This document shows positions 22,850 through 61,049 of a stretch of 64,000 nt of DNA, piece by piece; position 1 is the first letter of the stretch, and the number at the start of each line of letters is the position of its first letter. This DNA comes from Bacteroidales bacterium (GTDB lineage: Bacteria; Bacteroidota; Bacteroidia; Bacteroidales; VadinHA17), in contig DAOOUQ010000016.1 in assembly GCA_035390825.1 (NCBI GenBank), positions 8,250 through 72,249 on the forward strand, written 5' to 3'. The position numbers and the translations under genes are program-made. A model generated the notes under the pieces. That model was given only the letters and a program-made list of their open reading frames with translations, searched no databases and was not told where the DNA came from.

Positions 22850-22869
22850 ACACTGTAGTTCCCGGTCAG

Positions 22870-23580: not shown

Positions 23581-23592
23581 AACTGCTTGACT

Positions 23593-25675: not shown

Positions 25676-25676
25676 T

Positions 25677-43748: not shown

Positions 43749-44162
43749 TCACAGATATTTCCTGTCCTCTTCCGGAACATCAAAGTATTTGTCATATTTT
43801 ACGGAATCGGGACCTATCTTTTCAACTGATGTACCGCTGATCTTGTAAGTGCATTTTTCCCCGACTATATCAGAGAAGTAGATATCATACTGTTTGCCCT
43901 TTTCGTCGATCATAAGTATCCTTACCAGGTGGTCATACTTCAGACTGTTCAGATGGGCATGACATATCGGACAGTTAATGATGTATTCCTCACCTTCTTC
44001 AATAACGAAGGTTGGGTGGGTTGTCACAGTGTAATTGCCCAGCTCCGGATTAAGGAAAATAAGACCCTTCTTTGAGCTGTTTACCTTCGTGGCCGAAAGG
44101 ACAATAGAAGTTTTCACGTTCAGGACGCCTTTACATGCCTTGCACAAGTATTCAGTTGCCAT
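43749..44162 (-). CDS. Hypothetical zinc-ribbon protein, last gene of the hydrogenase operon
   Basis: The 137-aa protein has CKAC near the N-terminus and CPIC about 60 residues later. It has no HypA-type MHE N-terminus. Confidence 0.5.
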   Translation of the reverse strand: MATEYLCKACKGVLNVKTSIVLSATKVNSSKKGLIFLNPELGNYTVTTHPTFVIEEGEEYIINCPICHAHLNSLKYDHLVRILMIDEKGKQYDIYFSDIVGEKCTYKISGTSVEKIGPDSVKYDKYFDVPEEDRKYL

Positions 44163-44178
44163 GTGTTACCTCCTCCTT

Positions 44179-44649
44179 TTAATATGTATTGATAAATGAT
44201 ATGATTTTATCGGCCGTATTCTTTACAAGGTACGACATTTTTTCGCCAAAATCAATATTCTCAGGTTGAATTCCAAGTAAATATACAGGCATCTTAAAAA
44301 AATCTGAAACCCTTCTGAGCGAGATATTGTGCGTGTTGAATGTCATGTCTTCTGTCTGGTTGATATTTAGCAGCTTGTAATCTCCGGGGACAGAGCACAT
44401 ATCCAATGCATCGATGATTACAAGTATGTCAGGGCCGATCCTGTTTATCTTTCCGATGTAATTTTCGATGCTTACCTCGACAGTCAGTGCTGATACTGTC
44501 CCCGATCCTTTTATCCCTGAGCTTATGTAAGCGCCTGCCCCGTCGTCTTTCCTGAGGAGATTGCCTATCCCGACAAAAAGGATCTTTTTATCTCTTTGCG
44601 AAAGAAGGTTGATGAGTTCTTCAGACACTTTTTGAAAGGTATTTGACAA
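44179..44649 (-). CDS. Hydrogenase maturation endopeptidase (HycI/HyaD family)
   Basis: The 156-aa protein has the ILFVGIGNLLRKDDGAG motif. Confidence 0.8.
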   Translation of the reverse strand: MSNTFQKVSEELINLLSQRDKKILFVGIGNLLRKDDGAGAYISSGIKGSGTVSALTVEVSIENYIGKINRIGPDILVIIDALDMCSVPGDYKLLNINQTEDMTFNTHNISLRRVSDFFKMPVYLLGIQPENIDFGEKMSYLVKNTADKIISFINTY

Positions 44650-45241
44650 GAACCTGCCTAAGGCAGTTTGGACATATTATATTGAACATGTCTTTACGCT
44701 TAAGCCCGTCGCGGACTTCGGCCTCCAGATCATGGCCCTCTGCGAGGCGGAGTTCCCTGTTAAGGATATTCAGGTTCAGTATTGATGAAAATGCTTTCGG
44801 GCCAAGCTTTTTGTGAAGGTATGAAAGATGCTCCCTTGTAGTTATTACGGCACCGCAATGCCGGCAGACAAGAAGCTCTTTTTCCTGGTATTCAACATTG
44901 ATTTTCCTGTCAAACACTGCAAGGTCAAAAAGCTTGTCTGAGAGAGCCACTCCTTTTCCTGTAATACAATGTTCCTGGCAAAGCCCGCAGAAAATACATT
45001 TGCCGTAATCCCTTGTTATAGTCCTGATCCCCTTTTCCCTGTCGTCTGAAAATGTTATGGCATGGGGCGGACATACGTTGGTGCATGTCTCGCAGCCAAC
45101 GCAGTTGTCGTCGTCGACGACGGGTCTGCCCCTGTAATTTTCAAACGGTACATGCGGCTCTGCCGGATACCTCGAAGTATATGCAGGAGTAAACATTGAA
45201 ACCACGGCTTCCCTTAATTCCCTTAATTTCGGATATTTCAT
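44621..45241 (-). CDS. NuoI/MbhN-like 2x[4Fe-4S] subunit with a C-terminal CxxC...CxxC extension
   Basis: The 206-aa protein has CVGCETCTNVCP and CIFCGLCQEHC motifs. An additional CRHC ... CPNC pair lies in a tail of about 80 aa. Confidence 0.75.
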   Translation of the reverse strand: MKYPKLRELREAVVSMFTPAYTSRYPAEPHVPFENYRGRPVVDDDNCVGCETCTNVCPPHAITFSDDREKGIRTITRDYGKCIFCGLCQEHCITGKGVALSDKLFDLAVFDRKINVEYQEKELLVCRHCGAVITTREHLSYLHKKLGPKAFSSILNLNILNRELRLAEGHDLEAEVRDGLKRKDMFNIICPNCLRQVLVKYLSKSV

Positions 45242-45564
45242 TTCACAGCCTCCTTGTAATCATCTTTTACTGTCCGTTTATCGAGCGGTGTGCCGAACCT
45301 GTAGGTTCCTCTGATCAGGGCATGAGCAGCAACTGTCGCGGTGAAGAAAAGTACGGGAATTGCCACAATGGCTTTTATGCCGGCGTCCGAAATGCCGAAA
45401 TGGAACAATACCCCGATAAGGATGCTGCAACACCCAAGCGTCACACATTTGGTGGCCGCCTGAAGCCTGTTATAAACATCCGGGAGCCGGATCAGTCCGA
45501 TACATCCGAAAATATTGAATAAAACACCAATGCAGATAAAAATAATTGCGATCATCTCATTCAT
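45238..45564 (-). CDS. Mrp/Mnh antiporter subunit G-like
   Basis: The 108-aa protein has a GLIRLPDVYNRLQAATK motif typical of MnhG. Confidence 0.8.
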   Translation of the reverse strand: MNEMIAIIFICIGVLFNIFGCIGLIRLPDVYNRLQAATKCVTLGCCSILIGVLFHFGISDAGIKAIVAIPVLFFTATVAAHALIRGTYRFGTPLDKRTVKDDYKEAVK

Positions 45565-45823
45565 TAAGTTTTTTTCCGCTGAGATATTTAGCCAGTGTAA
45601 GTGTCCCGATAAAACTCAGGATTATCCATGCAATGCCAATGTCGAGAATGAACGATCGTTCCGTCTGAACGGCGATAATGGCACAGATCCCGACAACAAG
45701 TATTCCGAAGATGTCTATTCCCACCATTCTGTCGGGAATCGTCGGACCGGCAATTATCCTGTAGAGGCAAACAGCGCTTAAGCCGATCTGAATGTAAAGC
45801 AGTATTGAAAGCCAGTCGCTCAT
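45557..45823 (-). CDS. Mrp/Mnh antiporter subunit F-like
   Basis: The 88-aa protein has 3 TM segments and an RIIAGPTIPDRMVGID motif. Confidence 0.8.
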   Translation of the reverse strand: MSDWLSILLYIQIGLSAVCLYRIIAGPTIPDRMVGIDIFGILVVGICAIIAVQTERSFILDIGIAWIILSFIGTLTLAKYLSGKKLNE

Positions 45824-46317
45824 TCTGCAAATCTTTTTATGTATTTTTCAAATGCTCCGGTGATAATCCGGGTATATTCCTCCGGATCTTCCGAACTGAC
45901 ATATATCCAGTGTATGTAAAGGCAATCATCAATAATATCCACAGTTATTGTACCCGGAGTCATCGTTATTGAATTGGCCAGAAGCGTCCTGGCAAATTCT
46001 GACTTAAGAGTTGTTTTAAGCTTCACAATCCCAGGCTTAATAGGCATTGAAGGATGAAGAACCCTGTATGCCACATCAAGATTGGCCTTAATGCATTCAA
46101 CCGTGAAAACTGCCAGGTAGACCATGAGCCAGAAATACCTGACGGGTTGAAGGAACTTATAAATGCCGGTAAAGTAATTGCGGGCAAAGAGAGCCGAACA
46201 AAGAGCCGATGCAACGGAACCAGTGACCAGGTTCGGGACTGTCAGGCTGAAGGTCAGGAGAAGCCAGAAAACCATTGATAATATAAATACAGCAACGTAT
46301 TTCATGTTATAATCCAA
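45820..46317 (-). CDS. Mrp/Mnh antiporter subunit E-like
   Basis: The call rests on the 165-aa size, two N-terminal TM segments, and the position between the MrpD-like and MrpF-like genes. Confidence 0.65.
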   Translation of the reverse strand: MDYNMKYVAVFILSMVFWLLLTFSLTVPNLVTGSVASALCSALFARNYFTGIYKFLQPVRYFWLMVYLAVFTVECIKANLDVAYRVLHPSMPIKPGIVKLKTTLKSEFARTLLANSITMTPGTITVDIIDDCLYIHWIYVSSEDPEEYTRIITGAFEKYIKRFAE

Positions 46318-47845
46318 TTACCAAATCTTTATATTTTACCGGATCTGTCAGGATATCGGTCGCCGGTGTCAGTATTGCATCCCTGATCCCCGGAAAAGCG
46401 AGAAGACTCAGTATTAAGCAAAGCAAACTCATAACCACCATGCTGAAAACCATTGGAAAGGGTACCTCTTTTACCACCCTTTCTTCCTTTCCCTCTTTCC
46501 GGTTAAAAAAGGCATATCTCTGGAATTTCAGAAATGATGCCAGTGTTATTATGCTGACAAGGATTGCCAGAAATGCAAGGAAATAGAATCCGGCCATCAC
46601 AGCTGCAATAATTATTATAAGCTTGCTGAAAAAACCATTGAACGGAGGTATCCCGGAAATTGACATCGATGCAATAAATGATGTAGCCGAGGTGGCAGGC
46701 ATCGATTTTCGCAGTCCTCCCATCTCTTTGAGATCGCGTGTGCCCAGCGTGTATTCGATGGCCCCTGCATTAAGGAAAAGAAGTCCCTTGAATGCAGCAT
46801 GGTTGACAAGATGGTATAACCCTCCCGCGACTGCAAGCATGGCAATTTCGTGTTTCAAGCCGCGCGATATCAGTATCATTCCCATCCCGACCGAAAGCAC
46901 GACATATCCCATCTGGCTTATGCTGTGGTAGGCAAGCAGCCGTTTGATATCCCATTGTCCGATGGCAAGGAAAACACCTATGACCATCGAAAGTGCCCCG
47001 AGTGTCGTGATGAGGACTGCGATGCTTTCATTTATTTCAAACAGGTTGAAGAAGAGCCTTATCATCACATAAATACCTGCTGCTTTGATAAGTACTCCGG
47101 AAAGCATTGCAGAAATCGGGGAAGGAGCCGAGGAGTGCGCATCAGGAAGCCAGGCATGGAATGGTATAATTGCTGCCTTAAGGCCAAAGCCGCAAAGTAT
47201 GAGAAGCTCGACAAAAATGTAGAAAGGCCTGTCGTGTCCTGCTTTCAGCATTTCGCGGATATCGGCAATATTAAGGGTTTTTGTTTTCCAATATATAAGG
47301 GCTATGCCGGCCAGAATGAAGAATGATGCAAGCGACCCGAGAACCTGGTACTTGAATGATGCTTCCAGCTCATTTTTTTCCACACCGAATGCTACCAGGG
47401 CATAGGCAGAGATAACAGAAATCTCCAGAAATACAAAAATGTTGAATAGGTCACCGCCGAGCACAACACCGTTCATGCCTGCTGTCATAAGGCAGAAAAG
47501 GGCATAGTAGAAGTTTTCAGACGTGAATCTTTTTATATATGACAAAGAATAAAATGCCGAAAGGAACCCGACGATGTTTATGATGCAGAGCATCAGAACT
47601 GTAAAACCATCCATTACCATACAGATCCCGACAGGTATCCCGTTTACGGGCTCCCAGCCGCCGACATAATAAACTGACGGATTTGTACCGGTTGTGGCCG
47701 CGGAATAAATGCTCATTGACGCGAGCGCGAGAATTATTACCTGAGTGAAACACCTGCTGAATCCTTTGATGAAGCTTCCCAGGATCATATCAATAAACGC
47801 CCCGGTCAGAGGGATCGCGACAAATAAGGGGATCAGAGGATTCAT
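46307..47845 (-). CDS. MrpD/NuoN/MbhH-like proton-conducting antiporter subunit
   Basis: The 512-aa protein has about 14 TM segments and complex I antiporter-like motifs (WLPDAHSSAPSPISA). Confidence 0.85.
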   Translation of the reverse strand: MNPLIPLFVAIPLTGAFIDMILGSFIKGFSRCFTQVIILALASMSIYSAATTGTNPSVYYVGGWEPVNGIPVGICMVMDGFTVLMLCIINIVGFLSAFYSLSYIKRFTSENFYYALFCLMTAGMNGVVLGGDLFNIFVFLEISVISAYALVAFGVEKNELEASFKYQVLGSLASFFILAGIALIYWKTKTLNIADIREMLKAGHDRPFYIFVELLILCGFGLKAAIIPFHAWLPDAHSSAPSPISAMLSGVLIKAAGIYVMIRLFFNLFEINESIAVLITTLGALSMVIGVFLAIGQWDIKRLLAYHSISQMGYVVLSVGMGMILISRGLKHEIAMLAVAGGLYHLVNHAAFKGLLFLNAGAIEYTLGTRDLKEMGGLRKSMPATSATSFIASMSISGIPPFNGFFSKLIIIIAAVMAGFYFLAFLAILVSIITLASFLKFQRYAFFNRKEGKEERVVKEVPFPMVFSMVVMSLLCLILSLLAFPGIRDAILTPATDILTDPVKYKDLVIGL

Positions 47846-47848
47846 TTT

Positions 47849-48187
47849 CTATCCTTTCAGGTTTTTGATTTCTCTTATGTCAAATGTGCCGTACTTCCTG
47901 TAAAGCCTGATTATTGTTGCCATAAGCATTGCAGTGGTAGCCAGTCCGATCACGATAGCTGTCAGTACAAGAGCCTGTGGCAGGGGATCAACATATACCT
48001 TTGCCGGACCGGTAGGGTCAACTATAGGAGCAACGCCTCCGTCGGTATAGCCGATAAGCGCAAACAGGAGAAACATGCTGAATTCCATTACCGACAGGGA
48101 GATAGCTATTTTGATCAGGTTCCTCCTTGTTATGACACCGTACAGACCTGCAAGGAATAATATGAAACAAAGAATGTATGCCGTCAT
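47849..48187 (-). CDS. MrpC/NuoK-like subunit
   Basis: The 112-aa protein has 3 TM segments and NuoK/MnhC-type architecture. Confidence 0.75.
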   Translation of the reverse strand: MTAYILCFILFLAGLYGVITRRNLIKIAISLSVMEFSMFLLFALIGYTDGGVAPIVDPTGPAKVYVDPLPQALVLTAIVIGLATTAMLMATIIRLYRKYGTFDIREIKNLKG

Positions 48188-48621
48188 TCTGCCAACTCCT
48201 CCTTAAAAATCACAAGTGCAAGAAATATTGTAAGCACTGAAGCAGCAACCTCGATGCCGACAAAAATGTTGTAAAGCGGAATAATACCCGCGCTGACAAG
48301 TTCACCCGGAGTTCCCTTAGGAATCCAGTTCAGAAAGAAAATCCTTCCGGCTGCAAGCAGGCCGGAGACCGCGAGAAAGACGACGATCAGAATGGCAAGA
48401 TTCTCATATAATGTCGATCCGGCCTCTTCCCTGGCCAGCCCGGGAAAATCACTTCCGAAAGCAAGGATCAGCAGGATGAATGATCCGGCAATTATCACTC
48501 CGCCTGCAAACCCTCCTCCTGGTGTCAGATGTCCATGCGTTATTATATATATGCCGTAAAGAAATACCAGCCCGGATATGAGCCGGGTGGTTTTCTTTAC
48601 TATTATGGTCATTCCCTTCAT
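48184..48621 (-). CDS. MrpB (MnhB domain) subunit
   Basis: The 145-aa protein has the GHLTPGGGFAGGVI motif. Confidence 0.75.
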   Translation of the reverse strand: MKGMTIIVKKTTRLISGLVFLYGIYIITHGHLTPGGGFAGGVIIAGSFILLILAFGSDFPGLAREEAGSTLYENLAILIVVFLAVSGLLAAGRIFFLNWIPKGTPGELVSAGIIPLYNIFVGIEVAASVLTIFLALVIFKEELAE

Positions 48622-48649
48622 TTGTCTGTTGTAATTTAATGTGTGTGTT

Positions 48650-49177
48650 TCATCTTCTTCCTTTTATCCTGAGGATGGTAATCACCCCGAGAACAGCTGT
48701 GACAAGAACTGTGGCCTCTCCCAGGGTGTCATAGCCCCTGAAATCAAAAACAACACCTGTTACAAGATTAACACTTCCTGTAAGCTCCACAGCGCCATTG
48801 ATATACTGTGAGGCCATCCTCAGGGAACCTGAGCCAAAAGGATCAAGCATCGCAACCGAGAGGATGAAGAAATAAAGAAGTACTGCTGTCATTACTACGG
48901 CGGCGGCCATTGACATATATCCCTTTCGGTCGGGTTTTACAAAATGTTCTTCCCTCGATGAATCGAGAACAACAGCAACCATGATTATCAGTGTTATGGT
49001 CTCAACAACTATCTGAACGATTGCCAGATCGGGGGCCTTCAGCAGCAGAAAGCAAATGACAAGGCCATAACCAACAATGCCGCATGCGATCACGGCTGAA
49101 AGAAGATCCTTTGCATGGATCGCATACAAGGCTCCTGTTATCATCAGCCCGGCTATTATGCATATTGCGGTTTCCAT
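48650..49177 (-). CDS. MbhD / MrpA C-terminal-domain-like (DUF4040) membrane subunit
   Basis: The 175-aa protein is polytopic and lies between the MrpA/NuoL-like and MnhB-like genes, as in Mbh-type operons. Confidence 0.6.
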   Translation of the reverse strand: METAICIIAGLMITGALYAIHAKDLLSAVIACGIVGYGLVICFLLLKAPDLAIVQIVVETITLIIMVAVVLDSSREEHFVKPDRKGYMSMAAAVVMTAVLLYFFILSVAMLDPFGSGSLRMASQYINGAVELTGSVNLVTGVVFDFRGYDTLGEATVLVTAVLGVITILRIKGRR

Positions 49178-49191
49178 AACTTACACTCTTG

Positions 49192-51054: not shown

Positions 51055-52256
51055 TTGTTGAAGTTAAATTCCTTGTTCAGCCCGGCCGTCATGGCGGCTG
51101 ATCTTTCGATCAGTTCCTTAGCGTTCATCAGCTTCTTGCCCGAGCGGGCGTCACATACAACGGCAAGCCGTTCGGTGCAGCAATAGCACGGATCGACACC
51201 GGCCAGCGTGATGGTGGCATCGGCGATGGTCTGCCCGATGCATGACTTTTTAAACGTGGCGATATTGACATAGCTCGGAGCCCTGATCTTATGCCTGGCC
51301 GGTGAGTTTGATCCGTCAGAGACAACAAAATGGAAAACCTCACCCCTGGGGGCTTCGGCTCTCCCGTTACCAATACCTTCAGGTATCTCGGTTACCTTCA
51401 CATTAATATCACCCTCTTTTTCTTTTTCAAGCCCTTTCAGGCACTGCTCAATTATTGAGATTGATTCATATATTTCAAGAAGTCTTACCTCGGCTTTGGC
51501 AAAGACATCACCTGCTTCGGAAGTTATCACTTTCCAGTCCACAAGAGGGTAGGCAGCATAAGGATCATCTTTCCTTACATCGATGGCAACACCTGATGCC
51601 CTTGCTGTCGGTCCCACTGCTCCGTAATCGATGACATCCTGCCTGGTCAGTACTCCTACACCTTTTGTCCTTGAATGTATAACAGGATCGTCCATCACGG
51701 CCCCTGTAAGAAGATCGGTTTTTGATTTCACCTCTCCCAGAACTCTTAGTATTTCAGGTATTTTATGGTTTTCGATATCACGCCTGACACCTCCGATCCT
51801 GAACATTGCATAGCTGTTCCTGTTACCGGTGATCATCTCGAATAGGTCAAGGACAGGTTCCCTGTATTTCCAGGCCCACATGAAGACAGTATTGTATCCC
51901 AGGAAATGTCCGGCGAGGCCAACCCACAGCAGATGGCTGTGTATCCTTTCAAGCTCACCGATTATAGATCTGATATATTTGGCCCTGTCAGTGATTTCAA
52001 TACCTGCAATTTCTTCCACCGCATTTGCAAAAGCGAAAGGGTGGGAGGTGGAGCAGATTCCGCAAATCCTTTCGACAAGGAAAAATACCTGTTCATAGGT
52101 TTTCGATTCGCTGAGCTTTTCTATGCTCCGGTGATTGTAGCCGGTAACCCACCGGATATCCTTTACAATTTCGCCATCGCAATACAACTTGAACAGTTCA
52201 GGCTCTTCCTGAAGAGGATGATAAGGACCTATCGGTATTAATGTCTTTCTGCTCAT
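51051..52256 (-). CDS. Group-4 [NiFe]-hydrogenase large subunit (NuoD/MbhL/HycE-like)
   Basis: The 401-aa protein has the N-terminal L1 motif RICGICSTSH and the C-terminal L2 motif DPCYCCTER. About 37 further residues follow L2. Confidence 0.9.
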   Translation of the reverse strand: MSRKTLIPIGPYHPLQEEPELFKLYCDGEIVKDIRWVTGYNHRSIEKLSESKTYEQVFFLVERICGICSTSHPFAFANAVEEIAGIEITDRAKYIRSIIGELERIHSHLLWVGLAGHFLGYNTVFMWAWKYREPVLDLFEMITGNRNSYAMFRIGGVRRDIENHKIPEILRVLGEVKSKTDLLTGAVMDDPVIHSRTKGVGVLTRQDVIDYGAVGPTARASGVAIDVRKDDPYAAYPLVDWKVITSEAGDVFAKAEVRLLEIYESISIIEQCLKGLEKEKEGDINVKVTEIPEGIGNGRAEAPRGEVFHFVVSDGSNSPARHKIRAPSYVNIATFKKSCIGQTIADATITLAGVDPCYCCTERLAVVCDARSGKKLMNAKELIERSAAMTAGLNKEFNFNK

Positions 52257-52711
52257 TTTTTCTCTTCAGAAACTGATTTGAATTCCTTTCTGTACGGGTA
52301 AACGCCTTCTGCCCAGTTACCTTCCGAAATCAGCTTGTCCTGGTTCGGATGGTTCAGGAAGTTGATGCCAAAAAGTTCATGCATCTCCCTTTCGATCCAG
52401 TTGGAGGCGTTGAACATGTTTGAGAGAGATTCTATCTCAGGCCTGACACTGTCGAGGATCACGTGCAGATTCAGGATGAGGCCGGCAGAGTCAAGACTGA
52501 AATGGTAGTGTATTTCAAATCCCTTCTTTGTATGCAGCGCCGATGCAATAATGAACCTGAATCCTGCTTCCTTGAACAGGTATTCTGCCGTCCGGAGAAT
52601 CGCCTCAGGCTTTACGGTAATGACCGCACGCTTCTGATTTTTCCTGGCGACCTCCAGAATATCAGGCTTGAATTTTGTTGTAAACTCAGATATGATCGAT
52701 TCTTCTGTCAT
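52253..52711 (-). CDS. NuoC/MbhK-like subunit
   Basis: The 152-aa protein has a 30-kDa-subunit-like C-terminus (NWxEREMHELFGINF). Confidence 0.8.
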   Translation of the reverse strand: MTEESIISEFTTKFKPDILEVARKNQKRAVITVKPEAILRTAEYLFKEAGFRFIIASALHTKKGFEIHYHFSLDSAGLILNLHVILDSVRPEIESLSNMFNASNWIEREMHELFGINFLNHPNQDKLISEGNWAEGVYPYRKEFKSVSEEKK

Positions 52712-52748
52712 CTTTTTCCCGAGCTCTCCTCTTTAACCTTTAGTCTTT

Positions 52749-53168
52749 CTACTTTTTACTTTTATTCACCAGCTTCACAATCCCCGCGATTATTGCTTCC
52801 GGCTTGGGAGGGCAGCCGGGTACGTAAGCATCCACCGGTATTACTTTGTCGACCGGACCAGCGAATGTGATGCTTTCGGCAAATAATCCTCCCGTGCATC
52901 CGCATGCCCCGATTGCAACCACCAGGATCGGCCTTGGAGCCTGATTGTAGATCTCAACAAGCCTTTCCCTGTCGTGTTTATTGATGGAACCATTGACAAG
53001 AAGCACATCGGCATGTCTTATACTGCCAACCAGCAATATACCGAACCTTTCAAGGTCGTGTCGCGGTGTGAGACAATCCAGTATCTCTATATCGCAGTTA
53101 TTGCATGAAGCTCCTCCGAAATGGAAGACCCAGAGTGATTTTCTGAAGCAATAATTTTTGAATCCCAC
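52749..53168 (-). CDS. [NiFe]-hydrogenase small subunit, NuoB/MbhJ-like
   Basis: The 139-aa protein has Cys ligands for the proximal cluster (CNNC, GACGCTGG, PGCPP). Confidence 0.85.
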   Translation of the reverse strand: MGFKNYCFRKSLWVFHFGGASCNNCDIEILDCLTPRHDLERFGILLVGSIRHADVLLVNGSINKHDRERLVEIYNQAPRPILVVAIGACGCTGGLFAESITFAGPVDKVIPVDAYVPGCPPKPEAIIAGIVKLVNKSKK

Positions 53169-53350
53169 GACAGCCTGTTTTTAAATTAGAATTAATGCTC
53201 AGTTTTTTGCAGAAGTCCCCCTTTCCCGTTTTCCCCAAAGGGCAAATGCTCCTGGTTGAATTCCTTTCCTTCCGGTGTAAGGCCAGTGGGGGGGCATGTA
53301 TATTTTTATTCGACTGTTCTTCAACCTTGTATTATATCAATTTTCCACAG

Positions 53351-54283
53351 CTAAAATCCAATGAATGCAAGTACTATAGCGGCAATAGCCACCAGGTTCA
53401 TCCATACAAGGAAGAAGCTGACGGCCTGTTTTATCTTAATCCTCGGATTTGTATTTTTAATCAGCGTAAGAAGCAATACAATGACCGGGACTTTCAGAAT
53501 ACTCCATAAGATGTTTATCCCCTCAAATCTGAAGCCTCCTAAGAGTAATGCCGTGATGAATGAAGGGAGAACCAGCAGCATTATGTATTTTGTAAGTTTA
53601 ATAAGGGCATAGGCTGCTCCTGAATACTCGATGAAGATACCTTCCGTTATCTCTGCCTCCGCTTCGGGCATGTCGAAAGGGACCATGCCCATTTTTGCCT
53701 GGAGGCAGAATGTTCCTGCAATGAACAGCAGTACTCCCGATACACTTCCTATATTGGACGATGTGGCATGTTGGGTAAGGATTATGCCACGCAGGTCGGT
53801 CTGCCCGCCGCTTTTAAGTATAACTCCGGCAACTACAAGCAGGAATGTCAGCTCATAGCTCATAATAAGCTTCATTTCCCTTGAGCCTCCGACAGCAGCA
53901 AGCGGGTTCCCGGAAGCTAGGGAGCCTGTTATATAGGCAAATGATGGTATTGTCAGCAGGTAGAAGATCACAATAATGTCGCCCCTGAACCCGGTGGTTA
54001 TGTTGAACAGCGGTAAGAGGATGAAAACTGCGGCCAGAACCGCTCCCGTGAGTGAAAAGACGGGCGACAGGAGAAAGAGAAGTGGAGAACCGTGTTTTGG
54101 CAGAATGGTTTCCTTTACAAGCAGAAGCTTAAAGAAATCGTAGAAAGGCTGCAGGAAAGGCGGTCCTTTTCTGAACTGGACCCTGGCAGTTATCTTCCTG
54201 TCGAACCACGAAAGCAATCCGCCGGTTATTCCGCTGAAAAGCAGACCCGGGAAAACAAGAAAATAAAAGAGGGCAGCACCCAT
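53351..54283 (-). CDS. NuoH/MbhM/HycD-like membrane subunit
   Basis: The 310-aa protein has about 8 TM segments and a NuoH-type N-terminus (RKITARVQFRKGPP). Confidence 0.85.
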   Translation of the reverse strand: MGAALFYFLVFPGLLFSGITGGLLSWFDRKITARVQFRKGPPFLQPFYDFFKLLLVKETILPKHGSPLLFLLSPVFSLTGAVLAAVFILLPLFNITTGFRGDIIVIFYLLTIPSFAYITGSLASGNPLAAVGGSREMKLIMSYELTFLLVVAGVILKSGGQTDLRGIILTQHATSSNIGSVSGVLLFIAGTFCLQAKMGMVPFDMPEAEAEITEGIFIEYSGAAYALIKLTKYIMLLVLPSFITALLLGGFRFEGINILWSILKVPVIVLLLTLIKNTNPRIKIKQAVSFFLVWMNLVAIAAIVLAFIGF

Positions 54284-54287
54284 GTCA

Positions 54288-54854
54288 CTAAGGTTGTTTC
54301 TGTTCAGCGAAATACATGTAATCTCTTATGAGGATCCTGTCGTTAAGCCTGTAAATGTTTTCCTCCGGCTTTTCATCCATCTCGGTGAATGAAGCAACTC
54401 CGTCAGGGCAGGCCCTTACAAACAGTTCACGCTCATTTTCGTCGTTCAGATCATAAAAAAGATCCTTGTTCCTGTGATACCTGAAAAAGTCAGTCATCAT
54501 TGTTCCGAAAGGACAAGCAGTAACACACGATTTGCAGGCGACACAGAGGTTAAGGTGCCTGTCAATGATACCTTCACTGTCCTTATCAATGGCATCTGCC
54601 GGACAAACTGCGATACAAGGAGCATCCTCACATCTCCGGCAGGCAAACCTGAATACTGCCAGTTCCCGTAAAGGCTTTAATACGCCCTTTGTGTCTTTGT
54701 CCTTAAAGAATCCTTCAGGCAAAGCCACATCCGGGTTTCGCGACATTACCGCCCGCAGACTGATCATATCCAGAAGTATTCTTTTACCCATTCCGGTTTT
54801 TTGTTTTGGCCCGACTCTATTTCCAGATATCAGGAGTATCCTTAATTTCATCAT
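54288..54854 (-). CDS. 2x[4Fe-4S] connector protein (HycB/CooF-like position)
   Basis: It has CRRCEDAPCIAVCP and CVACKSCVTACP motifs. The alternative start Met22 (54791) would remove a 38-nt overlap with the upstream gene. Confidence 0.7.
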   Translation of the reverse strand: MMKLRILLISGNRVGPKQKTGMGKRILLDMISLRAVMSRNPDVALPEGFFKDKDTKGVLKPLRELAVFRFACRRCEDAPCIAVCPADAIDKDSEGIIDRHLNLCVACKSCVTACPFGTMMTDFFRYHRNKDLFYDLNDENERELFVRACPDGVASFTEMDEKPEENIYRLNDRILIRDYMYFAEQKQP

Positions 54855-55641
54855 AAGTGAACACGGGACCGTCCTTGCAGACGAAGTATTTTCCCATCAT
54901 GCAGTGGCCGCATTTCCCGAGTCCGCACGACATGTTTTTTTCCATCGAGAGGTATATTTCTTCATCCTTGTATCCCATCTCAAGGAACTTCATTGTCCCG
55001 AACTTCATCATGATCGGCGGTCCGCATACCACTGCAACCGAGTTACCAGGCTTCACCTTCACTTTGTTGAGAAGCGTTGTTGCCACTCCTACTGGCCCGT
55101 CCCAATCATCATCTCCCTTGTCGACAGTTCTGTATGCTTCAAATTTCTCTGTGCTGTTAAGCCTGTTGAAAAGCGGTTTATAAACGCAGTCAGCCGGTGT
55201 TTTTGAACCATAGCACAGGACAACCCTGTCGAGCTTATCCTTTACATGTTCAAGTGCGTAAAGAAGCGACCTTATCGGTGCCAGGCCGCATCCTCCTCCC
55301 AGGATAATCACCTCCTTCCCGAAAAAATTTTCGACAGGGTATCCTCGTCCGTATGGACCCCTGATTCCCATAAAGGCACCGGGCTTAAGGTTATGCATAT
55401 ATTCTGTCACATAACCCGTTTTCATAACGGTGACTTCAAGCTTGTCGGTCACATGAGGAGACGAGGAAGGGGTGAAGGGTGCTTCGCCGATACCGTCAAC
55501 TGACAATTCGATGAACTGGCCGGTGCCGAATGAGAATTCAGTCTCAGGGATAAGGACAAAAGTCTTTATCAGCGGTGATTCTTCAATGACCTCTGTGAGC
55601 TTTGCCCTGACGGGCTTGTAAATGTTCATCATCCCGTTCAT
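54817..55641 (-). CDS. FAD/NAD(P)-binding oxidoreductase with C-terminal [2Fe-2S] (AsrB / HydG / PyrK family)
   Basis: The 274-aa protein has a ferredoxin-reductase-type fold (GQFIELS, GGGCGLAPI). Its C-terminus reads CGLGKCGHCMMGKYFVCKDGPVF. Confidence 0.8.
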   Translation of the reverse strand: MNGMMNIYKPVRAKLTEVIEESPLIKTFVLIPETEFSFGTGQFIELSVDGIGEAPFTPSSSPHVTDKLEVTVMKTGYVTEYMHNLKPGAFMGIRGPYGRGYPVENFFGKEVIILGGGCGLAPIRSLLYALEHVKDKLDRVVLCYGSKTPADCVYKPLFNRLNSTEKFEAYRTVDKGDDDWDGPVGVATTLLNKVKVKPGNSVAVVCGPPIMMKFGTMKFLEMGYKDEEIYLSMEKNMSCGLGKCGHCMMGKYFVCKDGPVFTYDEIKDTPDIWK

Positions 55642-55647
55642 GGCATA

Positions 55648-56637
55648 CTATTTTGCCAGTTCCATGAACAATTCGTTTTTGTTTATTTTACCGATGCATG
55701 CCTCGATGCAGCGCCCGCACCCCGTGCATGCAACAGAACTGAATTTACCGGGCTTCCAGATATATTTGCACATATATCTGTTCCTGAATCTCCTTGGCAA
55801 TTCGAACAATGAATCTTCCCCTCCGGCAACCCTTTGAAATCCGGGGTACTGGCAGGCATCCATCTGCCTTATCTTTTCAAAACCGGGTTTGTCAATGAGA
55901 AGAAAACAGGAGCAGGTAGGACATATTGTTGTGCATGCACCGCAAGAAACGCAACGGGAAGAGTATCTGGCCCAGATTTCATCACCGGCTTTTTGCAGAA
56001 GCATGCCGGTAGTCTCAAAGCCGGGAAGGCCCTTCACGGCTTCCGATAGTTTGCTTAAAGCCGTTTTGTGAGCTTCATCAATTACAGCAAGTGTCTTGTC
56101 ATCAATCATCTCCCGAGTGACGGAAAAATGATTTGCAAAACCATTTCCTTTTTCCGTTGCCACCCTCAGCAGAATCATGTCTTCAACTCTGATGACAGAG
56201 AGATCGGCACTTTCAGACCATGGGTTTATGCCGTAAGAAGTGCAATGGCAATGTTCCTGCCTTTCAAAGCAGTCAAATGATATGATAACTGTGTTTTCAC
56301 GATGCTGTTGGTAATAAATGTCGATGTAATCCCTGTCGAGGTATATCTCATCAAGAAGCTTCAATCCTTCAACATCACAACCCGGCACTCCCATAATTAC
56401 ACGCTGTCTGTTGCGGACCTGTCCGGAGGTAACATTTTCCTTTACCGGGAGAAAGAAAGTTTTCAGAGGTGTGGCCGGTTTCGCCCTGTTGTATGCTATT
56501 CTGCTGATATTCGATGAATTAAGCTCTTCATAATCAATCCCAAAATCGTTTTCCACCGCGGCGAAAATGGTAAAGGACAACTGAATCTGCTCAAGTGCTT
56601 TGTCCCATTCTTCCTTGTTTATGCTTAAGTAATGCAT
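55648..56637 (-). CDS. Fe-S protein of the AsrA / sulfhydrogenase-beta (HydB) family
   Basis: The 329-aa protein has CVSCGACTTICPTCSCF and CTGCGRCIEAC motifs. It is the first gene of the operon. Confidence 0.75.
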   Translation of the reverse strand: MHYLSINKEEWDKALEQIQLSFTIFAAVENDFGIDYEELNSSNISRIAYNRAKPATPLKTFFLPVKENVTSGQVRNRQRVIMGVPGCDVEGLKLLDEIYLDRDYIDIYYQQHRENTVIISFDCFERQEHCHCTSYGINPWSESADLSVIRVEDMILLRVATEKGNGFANHFSVTREMIDDKTLAVIDEAHKTALSKLSEAVKGLPGFETTGMLLQKAGDEIWARYSSRCVSCGACTTICPTCSCFLLIDKPGFEKIRQMDACQYPGFQRVAGGEDSLFELPRRFRNRYMCKYIWKPGKFSSVACTGCGRCIEACIGKINKNELFMELAK

Positions 56638-56639
56638 TT

Positions 56640-56657
56640 ATGTGAGAAGATTCACAT
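56640..56657. promoter_or_regulatory. Candidate Rex operator ATGTGAGAAGATTCACAT abutting the start of the hydrogenase operon
   Basis: The core is TGTGA-N6-TCACA with 7-bp palindromic arms (56639-56658). Each half matches the consensus TTGTGAA-N4-TTCACAA at 5 of 7 positions. It lies 3-20 nt upstream of the ATG at 56637. Confidence 0.55.
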
Positions 56658-56822: not shown

Positions 56823-56840
56823 ATGTGAAACAAATCACAA
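56823..56840. promoter_or_regulatory. Candidate Rex operator ATGTGAAACAAATCACAA overlapping the rex start codon
   Basis: The core is TGTGA-N6-TCACA, and each half matches the consensus at 6 of 7 positions. It overlaps the GTG start at 56825, which suggests autoregulation. Confidence 0.55.
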
Positions 56841-59751: not shown

Positions 59752-59969
59752 GCATTCCTGCACGAATAGTAAAAATTGATGGTACGACAGCGGATGTCTC
59801 TGTCGGGGGGGCGCTTTTTAAGGCCGGACTTCAGCTTCTGGATGATGTCAAAGAAGGTGATTATGTTCTGCTTCATGCAGGTTTTGCCATTCAGAAGGTA
59901 TCCGAAAAGGATGCACAGGAAACACTGGATATCCTGAATGAATTGTGCAATGACAGTGGAAGGGCTTAA
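59742..59969 (+). CDS. hypC: Hydrogenase assembly chaperone HypC/HupF
   Basis: The 75-aa protein has the MCLSIPARIV N-terminus with the conserved Cys2. Confidence 0.9.
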   Translation: MCLSIPARIVKIDGTTADVSVGGALFKAGLQLLDDVKEGDYVLLHAGFAIQKVSEKDAQETLDILNELCNDSGRA

Positions 59970-59971
59970 TT

Positions 59972-61048: not shown

Positions 61049-61049
61049 T

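What the first reader, a model, noticed from the sequence alone, without database searches (positions are those of the whole stretch)
43749..56637. Group-4 [NiFe]-hydrogenase with a full Mrp module whose donor position is occupied by an AsrA/AsrB (HydB/HydG)-like NAD(P)H-type module
This is a run of 19 tightly spaced or overlapping minus-strand genes. In transcription order they are: an AsrA/HydB-like Fe-S protein (CPTCSCF motif); an AsrB/HydG/PyrK-like FAD/NAD(P)-binding protein with a C-terminal 2Fe-2S motif (CGLGKCGHC); a 2x[4Fe-4S] connector; NuoH-, NuoB- and NuoC-like subunits; a large subunit with both NiFe Cys pairs (RICGICSTSH and DPCYCCTER); MrpA/NuoL-like, MbhD-like and MrpB, C, D, E, F, G subunits; a NuoI-like subunit; a HycI-type protease; and a Zn-ribbon protein. 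From established knowledge, group-4 hydrogenases receive electrons from ferredoxin, formate (FdhH/HycB) or CO (CooS/CooF). The AsrAB-like beta/gamma pair is the NAD(P)H-interacting module of the soluble group-3b sulfhydrogenase of Pyrococcus. Here that pair plus a polyferredoxin sits exactly where formate or CO modules sit in FHL/Coo systems, and a divergent rex (an NADH/NAD+ sensor) flanks the operon. My inference is a membrane complex that couples NAD(P)H:H+ oxidoreduction to ion translocation. NADH to H2 is endergonic under standard conditions, so coupling to the Mrp module would be meaningful in either direction. I cannot establish from memory whether this architecture has been characterised.
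Basis: partly seen in the sequence, partly recalled or inferred. Interest (0 to 1): 0.8.

Follow-up and report, generated by a model that had tools for sequence, protein, structure and literature searches.

The report
NAD(P)H-linked membrane hydrogenase with Mrp module
An anaerobic-digester Bacteroidales bacterium carries an operon for a membrane-bound, ion-pumping [NiFe] hydrogenase whose electron-input end is an NAD(P)H-binding flavoprotein pair; the design is conserved in at least twelve phyla, is controlled by the NADH sensor Rex, and has been noticed in genome surveys but never tested biochemically.

Summary
18 (not 19) co-directional minus-strand genes at 56637-43749 encode:
- an SHI-beta/AsrA-like Fe-S protein and an SHI-gamma/AsrB-like FAD/NAD(P)/[2Fe-2S] protein;
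- a HycB-like 2x[4Fe-4S] connector;
- a group-4 [NiFe] hydrogenase core and a complete Mrp module;
- a HycF-like subunit, a HycI protease and a Bacteroidales-only Zn-ribbon protein.

In 143 of 143 testable related loci from three scans, AsrA and AsrB sit directly upstream of the hydrogenase. These loci span Bacteroidota, Planctomycetota, Omnitrophota, Thermotogota, Calditrichota and others. Two Cloacimonadota loci in a fourth scan lack the pair. Flavin, NAD(P) and Fe-S ligand motifs are invariant across sequences only 25-35% (AsrA) or 34-59% (AsrB) identical.

Two exact Rex boxes lie in the rex-asrA intergenic region. They are conserved in relatives and almost absent elsewhere.

The large subunits form their own clade, apart from Mbh and HycE. 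The peripheral arm is FHL-like, with the formate dehydrogenase replaced by the SHI-beta/gamma pair.

The best reading is a Rex-induced, reversible, ion-coupled NAD(P)H:H+ oxidoreductase.

Prior art is in silico only (2019, 2020, 2026). Interest 0.6.

The parts
56641..56656 (.). Rex operator 1 (TGTGAGAAGATTCACA), 4 nt upstream of the asrA-like start codon
   Evidence: Exact TGTGA-N6-TCACA. It is one of only two exact matches in the 64 kb. A box sits at the same relative position, about -20 nt, in most related Bacteroidales loci.
56824..56839 (.). Rex operator 2 (TGTGAAACAAATCACA), overlapping the rex start codon (probable autoregulation)
   Evidence: It is conserved about 185-200 nt from box 1 in about 55 Bacteroidales loci.
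56825..57508 (+). rex, the redox-sensing NADH/NAD+ repressor; divergent from the hydrogenase operon and heading rex-hypFCDE
   Evidence: Pfam Put_DNA-bind_N + CoA_binding. NCBIfam Rex scores 208 bits against a cut-off of 138.
55648..56637 (-). SHI-beta/AsrA-like multi-[4Fe-4S] protein, 329 aa
   Evidence: PF17179. Full-length alignment to P. furiosus sulfhydrogenase 1 beta, 9nez_B, at 2e-34. 14-15 cysteines are invariant in 125 homologues. It scores below every NCBIfam equivalog cut-off.
54817..55641 (-). SHI-gamma/AsrB/PyrK-like flavoprotein, 274 aa: FAD site, NAD(P)H site and a C-terminal [2Fe-2S]
   Evidence: Pfam FAD_binding_6, NAD_binding_1 and DHODB_Fe-S_bind. Matches 9nez_C at 2e-48 with the motifs aligned. 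The motifs are invariant in 146 homologues.
54288..54791 (-). HycB-like 2x[4Fe-4S] connector. Probable start M22, 167 aa; the ORF extends to 54854.
   Evidence: Fer4_11. Best solved relatives are HDCR HycB4/HycB3 and FHL HycB. The start is inferred from the L004 orthologue.
53351..54283 (-). NuoH/HycD/MbhM-like membrane anchor, 310 aa
   Evidence: PF00146, 5e-62.
52749..53168 (-). NuoB/HycG/MbhJ-like hydrogenase small subunit, 139 aa
   Evidence: PF01058, 2e-30. NCBIfam NuoB subfamily, above its cut-off.
52253..52711 (-). NuoC/MbhK-like subunit, 152 aa
   Evidence: PF00329.
51051..52256 (-). [NiFe] large subunit, 401 aa, with a 38-residue C-terminal extension after DPCYCCTER
   Evidence: Complex1_49kDa + NiFeSe_Hases. 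6cfw_L (MbhL) 1e-82; 7z0s_E (HycE) 6e-78, with the alignment running into the extension. It sits in its own clade in the NJ tree.
49192..51054 (-). MrpA-N/NuoL-like antiporter subunit, 620 aa
   Evidence: Proton_antipo_M; NCBIfam hits.
48650..49177 (-). MbhD + MbhE domains (MrpA C-terminal part), 175 aa
   Evidence: PF13244 + PF20501.
48184..48621 (-). MrpB/MnhB-like, 145 aa
   Evidence: PF04039.
47849..48187 (-). MrpC/NuoK-like, 112 aa
   Evidence: PF00420.
46307..47845 (-). MrpD/MbhH-like antiporter subunit, 512 aa
   Evidence: PF00361, 4e-65.
45820..46317 (-). MrpE, 165 aa
   Evidence: PF01899.
45557..45823 (-). MrpF, 88 aa
   Evidence: PF04066.
45238..45564 (-). MrpG, 108 aa
   Evidence: PF03334.
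44621..45241 (-). HycF/NuoI-like 2x[4Fe-4S] subunit, 206 aa, with a C-terminal CxxC...CxxC tail
   Evidence: Best solved relative is FHL HycF, 7z0s_F, at 1.4e-19; MbhN scores 3.8e-11. Top NCBIfam hit is the FHL iron-sulfur subunit.
44179..44649 (-). HycI-type maturation endopeptidase, 156 aa
   Evidence: PF01750. TIGR00072 scores 72.9 bits against a cut-off of 47.
43749..44162 (-). Conserved 137-aa protein with two CxxC pairs (Zn-ribbon-like), function unknown. Last gene of the operon, and found in Bacteroidales only.
   Evidence: No Pfam or NCBIfam hit. 549 homologues, all named 'hypothetical' and all from Bacteroidales. Present at the operon end in Bacteroidales loci only. The AF2 model is poor, pLDDT 52.
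57607..62057 (+). hypF, hypC, hypD and hypE maturation genes downstream of rex
   Evidence: Pfam HypF domains, HupF_HypC, HypD and AIRS/AIRS_C. hypF is syntenic in relatives.

Best explanation
The operon encodes one membrane complex: a reversible, ion-translocating NAD(P)H:H+ oxidoreductase, in effect a 'proton-reducing complex I'.

Proposed electron path:
1. NAD(P)H is oxidised at the FAD of the SHI-gamma/AsrB-like subunit.
2. Electrons pass through its [2Fe-2S] cluster.
3. They cross the [4Fe-4S] clusters of the SHI-beta/AsrA-like subunit.
4. They continue through the HycB-like connector (2 clusters), the HycF-like subunit (2 clusters) and the NuoB-like small subunit (1 cluster).
5. They reach the [NiFe] site, where protons are reduced to H2.

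The NuoH-like anchor and a full Mrp module, with two antiporter-like subunits plus the Na+/H+ part, couple this near-equilibrium redox step to H+/Na+ movement. The ion gradient can therefore push H2 formation from NAD(P)H when H2 is not extremely low. Alternatively, H2 oxidation or very low H2 can build a gradient.

Rex represses the operon, and itself, at low NADH/NAD+ and releases it when NADH accumulates. The physiological role in this fermentative digester bacterium is therefore most likely disposal of excess NAD(P)H as H2.

Shown: gene content, cofactor motifs, conserved synteny, a distinct large-subunit clade, and conserved Rex operators.
Inferred: physical assembly, NAD(P)H as substrate, nucleotide specificity, direction, and ion coupling.
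For: - Domain content and closest solved relatives: SHI-beta and SHI-gamma (9nez_B 2e-34, 9nez_C 2e-48), HycB, HycF, and MbhL/HycE.
- AsrA-AsrB-connector-hydrogenase order in 143 of 143 testable loci from three scans; Mrp present in 121 of 123. The phyla include Bacteroidota, Planctomycetota, Omnitrophota, Elusimicrobiota, Spirochaetota, Thermotogota, Calditrichota, KSB1, Cloacimonadota and Aegiribacteria.
- The flavin motif, the NAD(P) motif, RGPYG, the four [2Fe-2S] cysteines and 14-15 AsrA cysteines are invariant although overall identity falls to 25-35%.
- The AsrAB-linked large subunits form one clade, separate from MbhL and HycE.
- Rex evidence: two exact operators in the 190-bp rex-asrA spacer and none elsewhere in 64 kb. 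They are conserved in about 55 Bacteroidales loci. Outside Bacteroidales, all 29 exact boxes in 1.5 Mb lie within 800 bp upstream of asrA. rex is adjacent in 56 of 61 Bacteroidales loci, and co-directional immediately upstream in many Planctomycetota, Aegiribacteria and Omnitrophota loci.
- There is no Fdh, CooS or AsrC gene in the operon.
- Takano et al. 2026 (PMC13582414) independently link SHI-beta/gamma homologues in group-4b clusters to NADP(H), citing the SHI structure paper.
Against: - There is no biochemical, proteomic or transcript evidence for assembly or activity.
- NADH to H2 is endergonic at standard conditions, so the direction depends on H2 pressure and the ion gradient.
- The nucleotide specificity (NADH or NADPH) cannot be read from the sequence. 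SHI uses NADPH, whereas Rex senses NADH.
- From my own knowledge, Rex regulons also include ferredoxin-dependent and bifurcating hydrogenases in other organisms, so Rex control does not prove NADH is the substrate.
- The surface Fe-S clusters of the AsrA-like or HycB-like subunits might also accept ferredoxin.
- The AsrA and AsrB homologues score below every NCBIfam equivalog cut-off, so they form a distinct subfamily of untested function.
- Two Cloacimonadota relatives lack the pair.
- The NJ tree has no support values.
Confidence: 0.55

Rival explanations
1. The reverse physiological direction. The complex is an H2-uptake, ion-pumping H2:NAD(P)+ oxidoreductase. It makes NAD(P)H from H2 and conserves the roughly 18 kJ/mol as an ion gradient.
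For: - The architecture is the same as in the best explanation.
- H2 to NAD+ is exergonic at standard conditions (established thermodynamics).
- SHI is described as reversible (the title of Xiao 2025, cited in PMC13582414).
- Digester and sediment habitats contain H2.
Against: - Rex derepresses when NADH is already high. That fits an NADH-consuming enzyme, not an NADH-producing one (the Rex logic is established knowledge).
- From my own knowledge, group-4 enzymes characterised so far are mainly H2-evolving.
- H2 in methanogenic habitats is kept very low.
Confidence: 0.2
2. A ferredoxin-driven Mbh/FHL-type hydrogenase in which the AsrAB-like pair is a second outlet or inlet. The complex would partition electrons between H+ and NAD(P)+, acting as an energy-conserving Fd:NAD(P)+ oxidoreductase plus hydrogenase. 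Alternatively it would confurcate Fd and NAD(P)H to H2, as Takano et al. propose for the Fdh-like-containing relatives.
For: - PMC13582414: an AlphaFold3 model of related group-4b clusters shows a three-branched Fe-S network, and the authors suggest bifurcation or confurcation.
- Phycisphaerae-type relatives carry an extra degenerate Fdh/NuoG-like 539-aa subunit between asrB and the connector.
- Characterised Mbh enzymes use ferredoxin (PMC8165549).
Against: - The window's operon has no Fdh-like third branch. The chain has only two termini, FAD and NiFe.
- From my own knowledge, the PyrK/SHI-gamma-type FAD is not a known bifurcating flavin.
- In FHL, HycB covers HycF. If this complex is built like FHL, the HycF-like subunit is capped by the HycB-like connector, where Mbh docks ferredoxin on MbhN. 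This is a structural analogy, not something shown here.
Confidence: 0.2
3. The AsrAB-like pair serves a sulfur-related or other unknown redox reaction. Examples are sulfhydrogenase-like S0/polysulfide reduction, or sulfite reduction with a partner encoded elsewhere. NAD(P)H:H+ exchange would not be its role.
For: - The family names: anaerobic sulfite reductase AsrA/AsrB, and sulfhydrogenase beta/gamma.
- From my own knowledge, the beta/gamma pair of SHI was historically linked to S0 reduction.
Against: - There is no AsrC or siroheme subunit in the operon.
- Scores are below the AsrA and AsrB equivalog cut-offs.
- The NAD(P) site is strictly conserved.
- Rex control is present.
- The linkage is to a hydrogenase in more than 140 loci.
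Confidence: 0.06
4. AsrAB-like proteins form a separate soluble enzyme. They are only co-transcribed with a ferredoxin-dependent Mrp-Mbh and are not part of the complex.
For: No direct evidence of assembly exists. AsrA is the least conserved component: 25-35% identity between phyla, against 55-66% for the large subunit.
Against: - The order and adjacency are invariant across at least twelve phyla, always followed by a HycB-type connector. In FHL and HDCR, HycB is the subunit that wires a donor enzyme to the hydrogenase.
- A two-subunit AsrAB with no catalytic partner has no obvious function.
Confidence: 0.08

Closest known systems
Formate hydrogenlyase and Mrp-linked formate/CO-respiring hydrogenases (HydDB groups 4a/4b; E. 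coli FHL, PDB 7z0s)
   Same: - The peripheral arm is wired the same way: donor module, then HycB-like ferredoxin, HycF-like subunit, small subunit and large subunit.
- The large subunit has a C-terminal extension removed by a HycI-type protease.
- HycF and HycB are the best solved matches for two subunits.
- In group 4b, the Mrp module is also shared.
   Different: - There is no formate dehydrogenase or CO dehydrogenase. Their position is taken by an SHI-beta/gamma (AsrAB-like) flavoprotein pair.
- The large subunit lies outside the HycE clade.
Membrane-bound hydrogenase Mbh of Pyrococcus furiosus (group 4d; PDB 6cfw)
   Same: - Best solved match for the large subunit (1e-82).
- Mrp-derived membrane arm with MbhA-H equivalents, and a NuoH-like anchor.
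   Different: - Mbh takes electrons directly from ferredoxin at MbhN and has no HycB or SHI-beta/gamma subunits.
- Mbh has one antiporter-like subunit, whereas this complex has two, which is Mbs/Mrp-like.
- The large-subunit clade is distinct.
Soluble sulfhydrogenase I (SHI, group 3b) of P. furiosus (PDB 9nez)
   Same: The beta and gamma subunits are the only or best solved homologues of the 329-aa and 274-aa proteins. The alignments are full length, and the Fe-S, FAD and NAD(P) motifs are conserved.
   Different: - SHI is cytoplasmic, with a group-3 alpha/delta hydrogenase.
- Here the pair is attached to a membrane-bound group-4 enzyme.
- Scores are far below the HydB/HydG and ShyB/ShyC equivalog cut-offs.
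The 'Mbh-Mrp-oxidoreductase type' / SHI-beta/gamma-associated group-4 clusters noted in genome surveys (Matheus Carnevali 2019, PMC6349859; Meheust 2020, bioRxiv 10.1101/765248; Takano 2026, PMC13582414)
   Same: A group-4 large subunit, antiporter subunits and asrA/asrB (SHI-beta/gamma) homologues plus a CooF/HycB-type ferredoxin. The function is stated as unknown, or as possibly NADP(H)-linked.
   Different: - The described Saganbacteria and group-4b examples include a molybdopterin/Fdh-like protein, often without the catalytic Cys/Sec.
- The window's Bacteroidales form has none, so it is a two-terminus chain.
- In the papers I could search and read, I found no mention of the Rex operators, the Bacteroidales clade or the Zn-ribbon gene.
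Respiratory complex I (NuoEFG N-module on a NuoBCDHI Q-module)
   Same: An NADH-oxidising flavoprotein module is wired through Fe-S clusters to a NuoB/NuoD-type catalytic pair and to Mrp-derived ion-translocating subunits. Phycisphaerae relatives even carry a degenerate molybdopterin/NuoG-C-terminal-like subunit.
   Different: - The flavoprotein module is of the PyrK/SHI-gamma type (FAD), not the NuoF type (FMN).
- The acceptor is H+ at an intact NiFe site, not quinone.
- The resemblance is analogy, not common descent of the N-module.

Membership tests
Group 4 (energy-converting) [NiFe] hydrogenase | Large subunit with N-terminal RxCGxCxxxH and C-terminal DPCxxCxxR NiFe-ligand motifs | tested here: met
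   RICGICSTSH and DPCYCCTER. Pfam Complex1_49kDa + NiFeSe_Hases. MbhL 1e-82 and HycE 6e-78.
Group 4 (energy-converting) [NiFe] hydrogenase | NuoB-type small subunit, NuoC-, NuoI- and NuoH-type partners encoded together | tested here: met
Group 4 (energy-converting) [NiFe] hydrogenase | H2 evolution or uptake activity coupled to ion translocation | not testable with these tools
   Requires biochemistry.
Group 4 (energy-converting) [NiFe] hydrogenase | HydDB subgroup assignment (4a-4i) | not tested
   No HydDB classifier was available. One lead only: a Cloacimonadota relative whose large subunit is 58% identical (Ca. Celaenobacter antarcticus, L214) was called Group 4g in PMC8542988. Takano's SHI-beta/gamma-linked clusters were called 4b.
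Mbh-type, ferredoxin-coupled Mrp-linked hydrogenase (group 4d) | Mrp-derived membrane subunits (MrpA-G / MbhA-H equivalents) | tested here: met
   Pfam Proton_antipo_M x2, MbhD, MbhE, MnhB, Oxidored_q2, MNHE, MrpF_PhaF and PhaG_MnhG.
Mbh-type, ferredoxin-coupled Mrp-linked hydrogenase (group 4d) | No dedicated donor module, with ferredoxin docking at the NuoI-like subunit | tested here: not met
   Three extra redox subunits (HycB-like, SHI-beta-like and SHI-gamma-like) are encoded at the head of the operon and are conserved.
Mbh-type, ferredoxin-coupled Mrp-linked hydrogenase (group 4d) | Large subunit clusters with MbhL | tested here: not met
   In the NJ tree MbhL falls in a different clade. 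The tree is approximate and has no bootstrap values.
Formate hydrogenlyase / group 4a-4b | HycB-type connector, HycF-type subunit, large-subunit C-terminal extension and HycI protease | tested here: met
Formate hydrogenlyase / group 4a-4b | Catalytic formate dehydrogenase (or CooS) as donor | tested here: not met
   No molybdopterin or CODH gene lies in the operon or its flanks.
Sulfhydrogenase (group 3b) beta/gamma module | Beta subunit: full-length homology with conserved Fe-S cysteines | tested here: met
   9nez_B residues 1-326 align to query residues 1-318. The cysteines are invariant.
Sulfhydrogenase (group 3b) beta/gamma module | Gamma subunit: FAD motif, NAD(P) motif and [2Fe-2S] cysteines | tested here: met
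Sulfhydrogenase (group 3b) beta/gamma module | Passes the NCBIfam HydB/HydG or ShyB/ShyC equivalog cut-offs, and is partnered with group-3 alpha/delta subunits | tested here: not met
   Scores are 125-169 bits against cut-offs of 600-750. The partner is a group-4 enzyme.
Anaerobic sulfite reductase AsrABC | AsrA and AsrB equivalog scores, plus the AsrC siroheme catalytic subunit | tested here: not met
   TIGR02910 scores 128 against 323, and TIGR02911 scores 200 against 289. No AsrC-like gene is in the operon.
Rex regulon | A Rex protein and Rex operators (TGTGA-N6-TCACA core) upstream of the target genes | tested here: met
   Rex is above the NCBIfam cut-off. Two exact boxes are present, conserved across relatives and essentially restricted to this position.
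Rex regulon | NADH-responsive binding of Rex to these sites | not testable with these tools
   Requires EMSA or in vivo assays.
SHI-beta/gamma-linked group-4 clusters (Takano 2026) / 'Mbh-Mrp-oxidoreductase type' (Meheust 2020) | Group-4 hydrogenase plus antiporter subunits plus SHI-beta/gamma (asrAB) homologues plus a ferredoxin subunit | tested here: met
   descriptions.
SHI-beta/gamma-linked group-4 clusters (Takano 2026) / 'Mbh-Mrp-oxidoreductase type' (Meheust 2020) | Fdh-like/molybdopterin subunit as a third branch | tested here: not met
   It is absent in the window and in most loci. It is present, as a 539-aa degenerate protein, in 11 Phycisphaerae-type loci.

The most novel reading that the evidence does not exclude
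This is a widespread, independently evolved 'proton-reducing complex I'. An SHI-gamma/beta-type NAD(P)H dehydrogenase module has replaced the formate dehydrogenase of an FHL-Mrp ancestor; some Planctomycetota retain a degenerate Fdh/NuoG-like relic. The result would be a Rex-controlled, reversible, ion-coupled NAD(P)H:H+ oxidoreductase. Using the ion-motive force, it would let fermenters in at least twelve phyla make H2 directly from NAD(P)H without ferredoxin or flavin-based bifurcation. That would add a fourth donor class (NAD(P)H) to group-4 hydrogenases. It would also give a living analogue of the step by which an NADH module was grafted onto the ancestor of complex I.
Probability: 0.45. 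Interest if true: 0.8.

Novelty: new variant of a known kind. Interest (0 to 1): 0.6.

Why it matters
- **H2 from NADH.** Making H2 from NADH is a central thermodynamic problem of anaerobic fermentation and syntrophy. From my own knowledge, the accepted solutions are electron-confurcating [FeFe] hydrogenases, or Rnf combined with ferredoxin-dependent hydrogenases.
- **A third solution.** A membrane enzyme that couples NAD(P)H:H+ exchange directly to the ion gradient would be a third route. It would change how H2 and energy budgets are modelled for abundant uncultured Bacteroidales, Planctomycetota, Omnitrophota, Cloacimonadota and others in digesters, wetlands and sediments.
- **Evolution of complex I.** The system also offers a natural experiment on how NADH-oxidising modules become attached to Mrp-hydrogenase cores, which is the origin of complex I.
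- **Current annotation.** Genome surveys I read annotate Mrp-linked group-4 enzymes of this kind as ferredoxin-coupled Mbh or 'group 4g' (PMC8542988, bioRxiv 10.1101/765248). That annotation may be wrong.

Tried and rejected
1. A 19th gene. No plausible ORF of 20 aa or more lies in the only sizeable gap.
2. The 182-nt nuoH-nuoB spacer as an RNA or a repeat. There is no Rfam hit in the whole window. Its folding is no better than shuffles, z = +1.55. It has no other copy in the window. It is present only in the closest relatives. It remains unexplained.
3. Sigma-70 promoter and terminator scans. The counts are close to those from shuffled sequence, the scans do not cover Bacteroidota promoter types, and they were not used.
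4. Structure of the 137-aa Zn-ribbon protein. The AF2 model from a 25-sequence alignment gave pLDDT 52, so I ran no fold search.
5. The sulfite-reductase reading. I rejected it because AsrC is absent and the scores are below cut-off.
6. A plain Mbh (group 4d) reading. I rejected it because of the conserved extra redox subunits and the separate large-subunit clade.
7. The SHI structure paper (Xiao 2025) could not be read, because it is not held. The supplements of Takano 2026 are also not held.
8. The Caldithrix abyssi and Staphylothermus marinus genome papers were checked and hold nothing relevant.
9. A cultured carrier. Every locus retrieved from the GTDB species representatives is a MAG or SAG.
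10. NADH versus NADPH specificity. I inspected the region after the second strand of the NAD domain by eye (YGSKT here, NTARY in SHI-gamma, GFASE in PyrK). I judged it not decisive.

Full report
**What is there**

The minus strand from 56637 to 43749 carries 18 co-directional ORFs. They overlap or sit 37 nt or less apart, apart from one 182-nt spacer.

Pfam, NCBIfam and PDB sequence searches assign them in transcription order:
- A 329-aa multi-cluster Fe-S protein. It carries PF17179. Its only solved homologue is P. furiosus sulfhydrogenase-1 beta (9nez_B, 2e-34), aligned over its full length.
- A 274-aa FAD_binding_6 / NAD_binding_1 / DHODB_Fe-S protein. Its best solved homologue is SHI gamma (9nez_C, 2e-48).
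- A HycB-type 2x[4Fe-4S] connector.
- NuoH-, NuoB- and NuoC-like subunits.
- A 401-aa [NiFe] large subunit with RICGICSTSH and DPCYCCTER. MbhL scores 1e-82 and HycE 6e-78.
- A complete Mrp set: a 620-aa MrpA-N-like protein, a 175-aa MbhD/E protein, and MrpB, C, D, E, F and G.
- A HycF-like 2x[4Fe-4S] subunit. FHL HycF scores 1.4e-19, better than MbhN at 3.8e-11.
- A HycI-type protease.
- A 137-aa protein with two CxxC pairs and no family hit.

rex lies divergently at 56825-57508 and scores above NCBIfam's Rex cut-off. It heads a rex-hypF-hypC-hypD-hypE string.

- There are 18 genes, not 19.
- The connector probably starts at M22 (54791), judged from the 165-aa orthologue in L004.

The host is an uncultured Bacteroidales bacterium. 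Its nearest species-level relative in the genome collection, with a 96% identical large subunit, is the MAG AS27yjCOA_179. The isolate name suggests a biogas-reactor study; I did not verify the habitat. The exact AsrA-like protein occurs in JGI, ENA and Logan assemblies.

**Conservation**

The window's large subunit retrieved 80 Bacteroidales species-level loci at 81-96% identity, out of more than 555 candidates.

A search of 1.8 billion 50%-identity representatives showed a sharp drop beyond two clusters at about 60% identity. I used one of those, then a 46% representative, then a Kosmotogaceae sequence as new queries. These brought in loci from Planctomycetota (Phycisphaerae, Sedimentisphaerales), Omnitrophota, Aegiribacteria, Elusimicrobiota/Endomicrobiia, Spirochaetota, Bipolaricaulota, Ca. 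Mcinerneyibacterium, Thermotogota, Calditrichota, KSB1, Cloacimonadota and Bacillota-labelled MAGs.

tblastn of the 18 proteins gave these results:
- AsrA-like and AsrB-like genes lie immediately upstream of the connector and hydrogenase in 143 of 143 loci with enough upstream sequence.
- The Mrp genes follow in 121 of 123 loci.
- The two loci without Mrp (L161, L162) have AsrAB plus a smaller hydrogenase.

In the fourth set, two Cloacimonadota loci (L208, L214) lack AsrAB. L214 has instead a CBS protein and a NuoI-GltD-like NAD(P)-binding fusion upstream. These may belong to a neighbouring complex.

In an NJ tree, all AsrAB-linked large subunits form one clade, distinct from P. furiosus MbhL and E. 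coli HycE. The tree is approximate and has no support values.

**Are the cofactor sites intact?**

The following positions are invariant or nearly so across 146 non-identical AsrB-like sequences (34-90% identity):
- the flavin motif (GE.PF..SS, which aligns with GEVPISICSSP of SHI gamma);
- RGPYG;
- the GG.G..P NAD(P) motif;
- all four [2Fe-2S] cysteines.

Across 125 AsrA-like sequences (25-81% identity), 14-15 cysteines are invariant. The module is therefore under strong purifying selection for its redox cofactors. Nucleotide specificity cannot be read from the sequence.

**Regulation**

The pattern TGTGA-N6-TCACA, the core of the Rex operator, occurs exactly twice in the 64-kb window. Both copies are in the 190-bp rex-asrA spacer:
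- one at 56641-56656, 4 nt upstream of the asrA-like ATG;
- one at 56824-56839, over the rex start codon.

Both boxes recur at the same relative positions in about 55 of the roughly 60 Bacteroidales loci that cover the spacer. Only one other hit occurs in about 1.2 Mb.

Outside Bacteroidales, all 29 exact boxes in 1.5 Mb lie within 800 bp upstream of asrA. These are in Omnitrophota, Calditrichota and unclassified lineages.

rex itself is adjacent in 56 of 61 Bacteroidales loci, where it is divergent. In many Planctomycetota, Aegiribacteria and Omnitrophota loci it sits immediately upstream on the same strand. This is strong comparative evidence that the operon responds to the NADH/NAD+ ratio.

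**Mechanism**

The peripheral arm is built like formate hydrogenlyase. A donor feeds HycB, then HycF, then the small subunit, then a large subunit whose C-terminal extension is processed by HycI.

The donor position is filled by the SHI-beta/gamma pair, which in SHI carries out NADPH oxidation (PMC13582414, citing Xiao 2025). The membrane arm is Mrp/Mbs-like, with two antiporter-like subunits.

The most economical reading is a linear chain: NAD(P)H to FAD, [2Fe-2S], the AsrA clusters, HycB-like, HycF-like, NuoB-like, and then NiFe. The chain would be coupled through NuoH and Mrp to H+/Na+ movement.

Thermodynamics (own calculation from standard potentials):
- NADH/H2 is about 94 mV uphill at 1 bar H2.
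- It is roughly at equilibrium at 1-10 Pa H2.
- An ion-coupled, reversible enzyme therefore makes sense in either direction.

Rex logic, derepression when NADH is high, favours NAD(P)H disposal as H2. Assembly, substrate, direction and coupling are all inferred.

**Rivals**
- H2 uptake: the same enzyme working in reverse.
- A ferredoxin-driven enzyme with NAD(P)+ as a second outlet, or a confurcating enzyme.
- A sulfur-related role for AsrAB.
- Mere co-transcription of a separate soluble enzyme.

The window's variant lacks the Fdh-like third branch on which the bifurcation proposal of Takano et al. rests. It also lacks AsrC.

**Relation to known work**

I found no biochemical study in the searchable library. 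Three genome surveys mention the architecture:
- Saganbacteria RX5A: an 'enigmatic' group-4 enzyme with Mrp, an unclassifiable molybdopterin protein, cooF, asrA and asrB (PMC6349859).
- Group-4b clusters in which Fdh lacks its catalytic residue and SHI-gamma/beta homologues co-occur. The authors suggest H2/NADP(H)/unknown-substrate bifurcation (PMC13582414).

I found the Fdh-like variant in 11 Phycisphaerae-type loci. It is a 539-aa protein whose only, very weak, similarity is to the NuoG C-terminal/molybdopterin fold.

The window's form has no such subunit. In the papers I could search and read, I did not find described the Rex operators, the large Bacteroidales clade, the terminal Zn-ribbon gene, or the cNMP-binding gene that 33 of 61 Bacteroidales relatives carry between asrB and the connector.

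Other surveys annotate related Mrp-linked enzymes as ferredoxin-coupled 'group 4g' Mbh (PMC8542988). One MAG from that study (L214) is in my fourth set, but it happens to lack AsrAB.

**Verdict**

The interpretation survives its own refutation tests and gains support from the Rex evidence, but it remains an inference. The system is a new variant (Fdh-less, Rex-controlled, full Mrp) of a kind already noticed in silico and never characterised.

Interest is 0.6. It is a concrete, widely distributed candidate for a long-standing bioenergetic question, H2 from NAD(P)H. The score is tempered by the prior in-silico reports and by the lack of any cultured host among the loci retrieved.

Noticed in passing
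window 53169-53350: There is a 182-nt spacer between the nuoH-like and nuoB-like genes. It is present only in the window and its two closest relatives (L001, L002). Most relatives have about 15 nt here. It is C-run/G-run rich, but it has no Rfam hit, no significant fold (z = +1.55) and no second copy in the window.
   Followed up: yes
L004:7098-7553 (and 33 of 61 Bacteroidales loci): A stand-alone 151-aa cyclic-nucleotide-binding-domain protein (PF00027) is inserted between asrB and the HycB-like connector in about half of the Bacteroidales relatives. It is absent from the window. It may be an extra regulatory or ligand-sensing subunit of the complex.
   Followed up: partly
L082:6292-7911 (11 Phycisphaerae-type loci): A 539-aa protein lies between asrB and the connector. 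It has an N-terminal CxxCxxxC motif and only sub-threshold similarity to Molydop_binding and the NuoG C-terminal domain. It looks like a degenerate formate-dehydrogenase/NuoG-like relic. It matches the 'unclassifiable molybdopterin oxidoreductase' of Saganbacteria and the catalytically dead Fdh of Takano 2026.
   Followed up: partly
L161 and L162: The nearest outgroup large subunits (46% identical) also have AsrA/AsrB plus a connector upstream, but no Mrp E/F/G module; they encode a smaller Ech/Hyf-like enzyme. The link to AsrAB therefore seems older or broader than the link to Mrp. L161 also carries a second AsrA/AsrB pair at its start.
   Followed up: partly
L214:78-3461 (Ca. Celaenobacter antarcticus) and L208: Two Cloacimonadota relatives lack AsrAB. 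L214 has instead, upstream of the connector, a NuoD-like protein without NiFe cysteines, a 619-aa NuoI-like + GltD/NfnB-like NAD(P)-binding fusion, and a CBS-domain protein. This may be a displacement by another pyridine-nucleotide module, or the tail of a neighbouring Ehr/Mbx-like complex.
   Followed up: partly
window 22833-27912 (+): A heterodisulfide-reductase-like cluster: an HdrC-like Fer4 protein (248 aa), an HdrB-like CCG protein (355 aa), a Pyr_redox_2 flavoprotein (342 aa) and a 644-aa Fer4 + 2xCCG HdrD-like protein. A one-mismatch Rex-box-like site (TGTGAATAAATTAACA, 22833-22848) sits exactly at the first gene's start, so this may be a second Rex target.
   Followed up: partly
window 43749-44162 (-): The last gene of the operon encodes a 137-aa protein that is highly conserved (70-100% identity over 549 homologues) and found only in Bacteroidales. 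It has two invariant CxxC pairs, belongs to no known family and gave a poor AF2 model. It is the same length as E. coli HycH (from memory) and also lies next to the HycI gene, though after it rather than before, but it shows no sequence similarity to HycH.
   Followed up: partly
window 57607-62057 (+): hypF, hypC, hypD and hypE follow rex, but no hypA or hypB was seen in the part of the window I annotated. The nickel-insertion genes are presumably elsewhere in the genome.
   Followed up: no
L137 (contig labelled Thiohalospira sp.) and L085-L087 (labelled Anaerolineales): The taxon labels disagree with the sequence. L137 is 81% identical in the large subunit and fully syntenic with Bacteroidales loci. 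L085-L087 cluster with Phycisphaerae. These are probably mis-binned or mislabelled MAG contigs.
   Followed up: no
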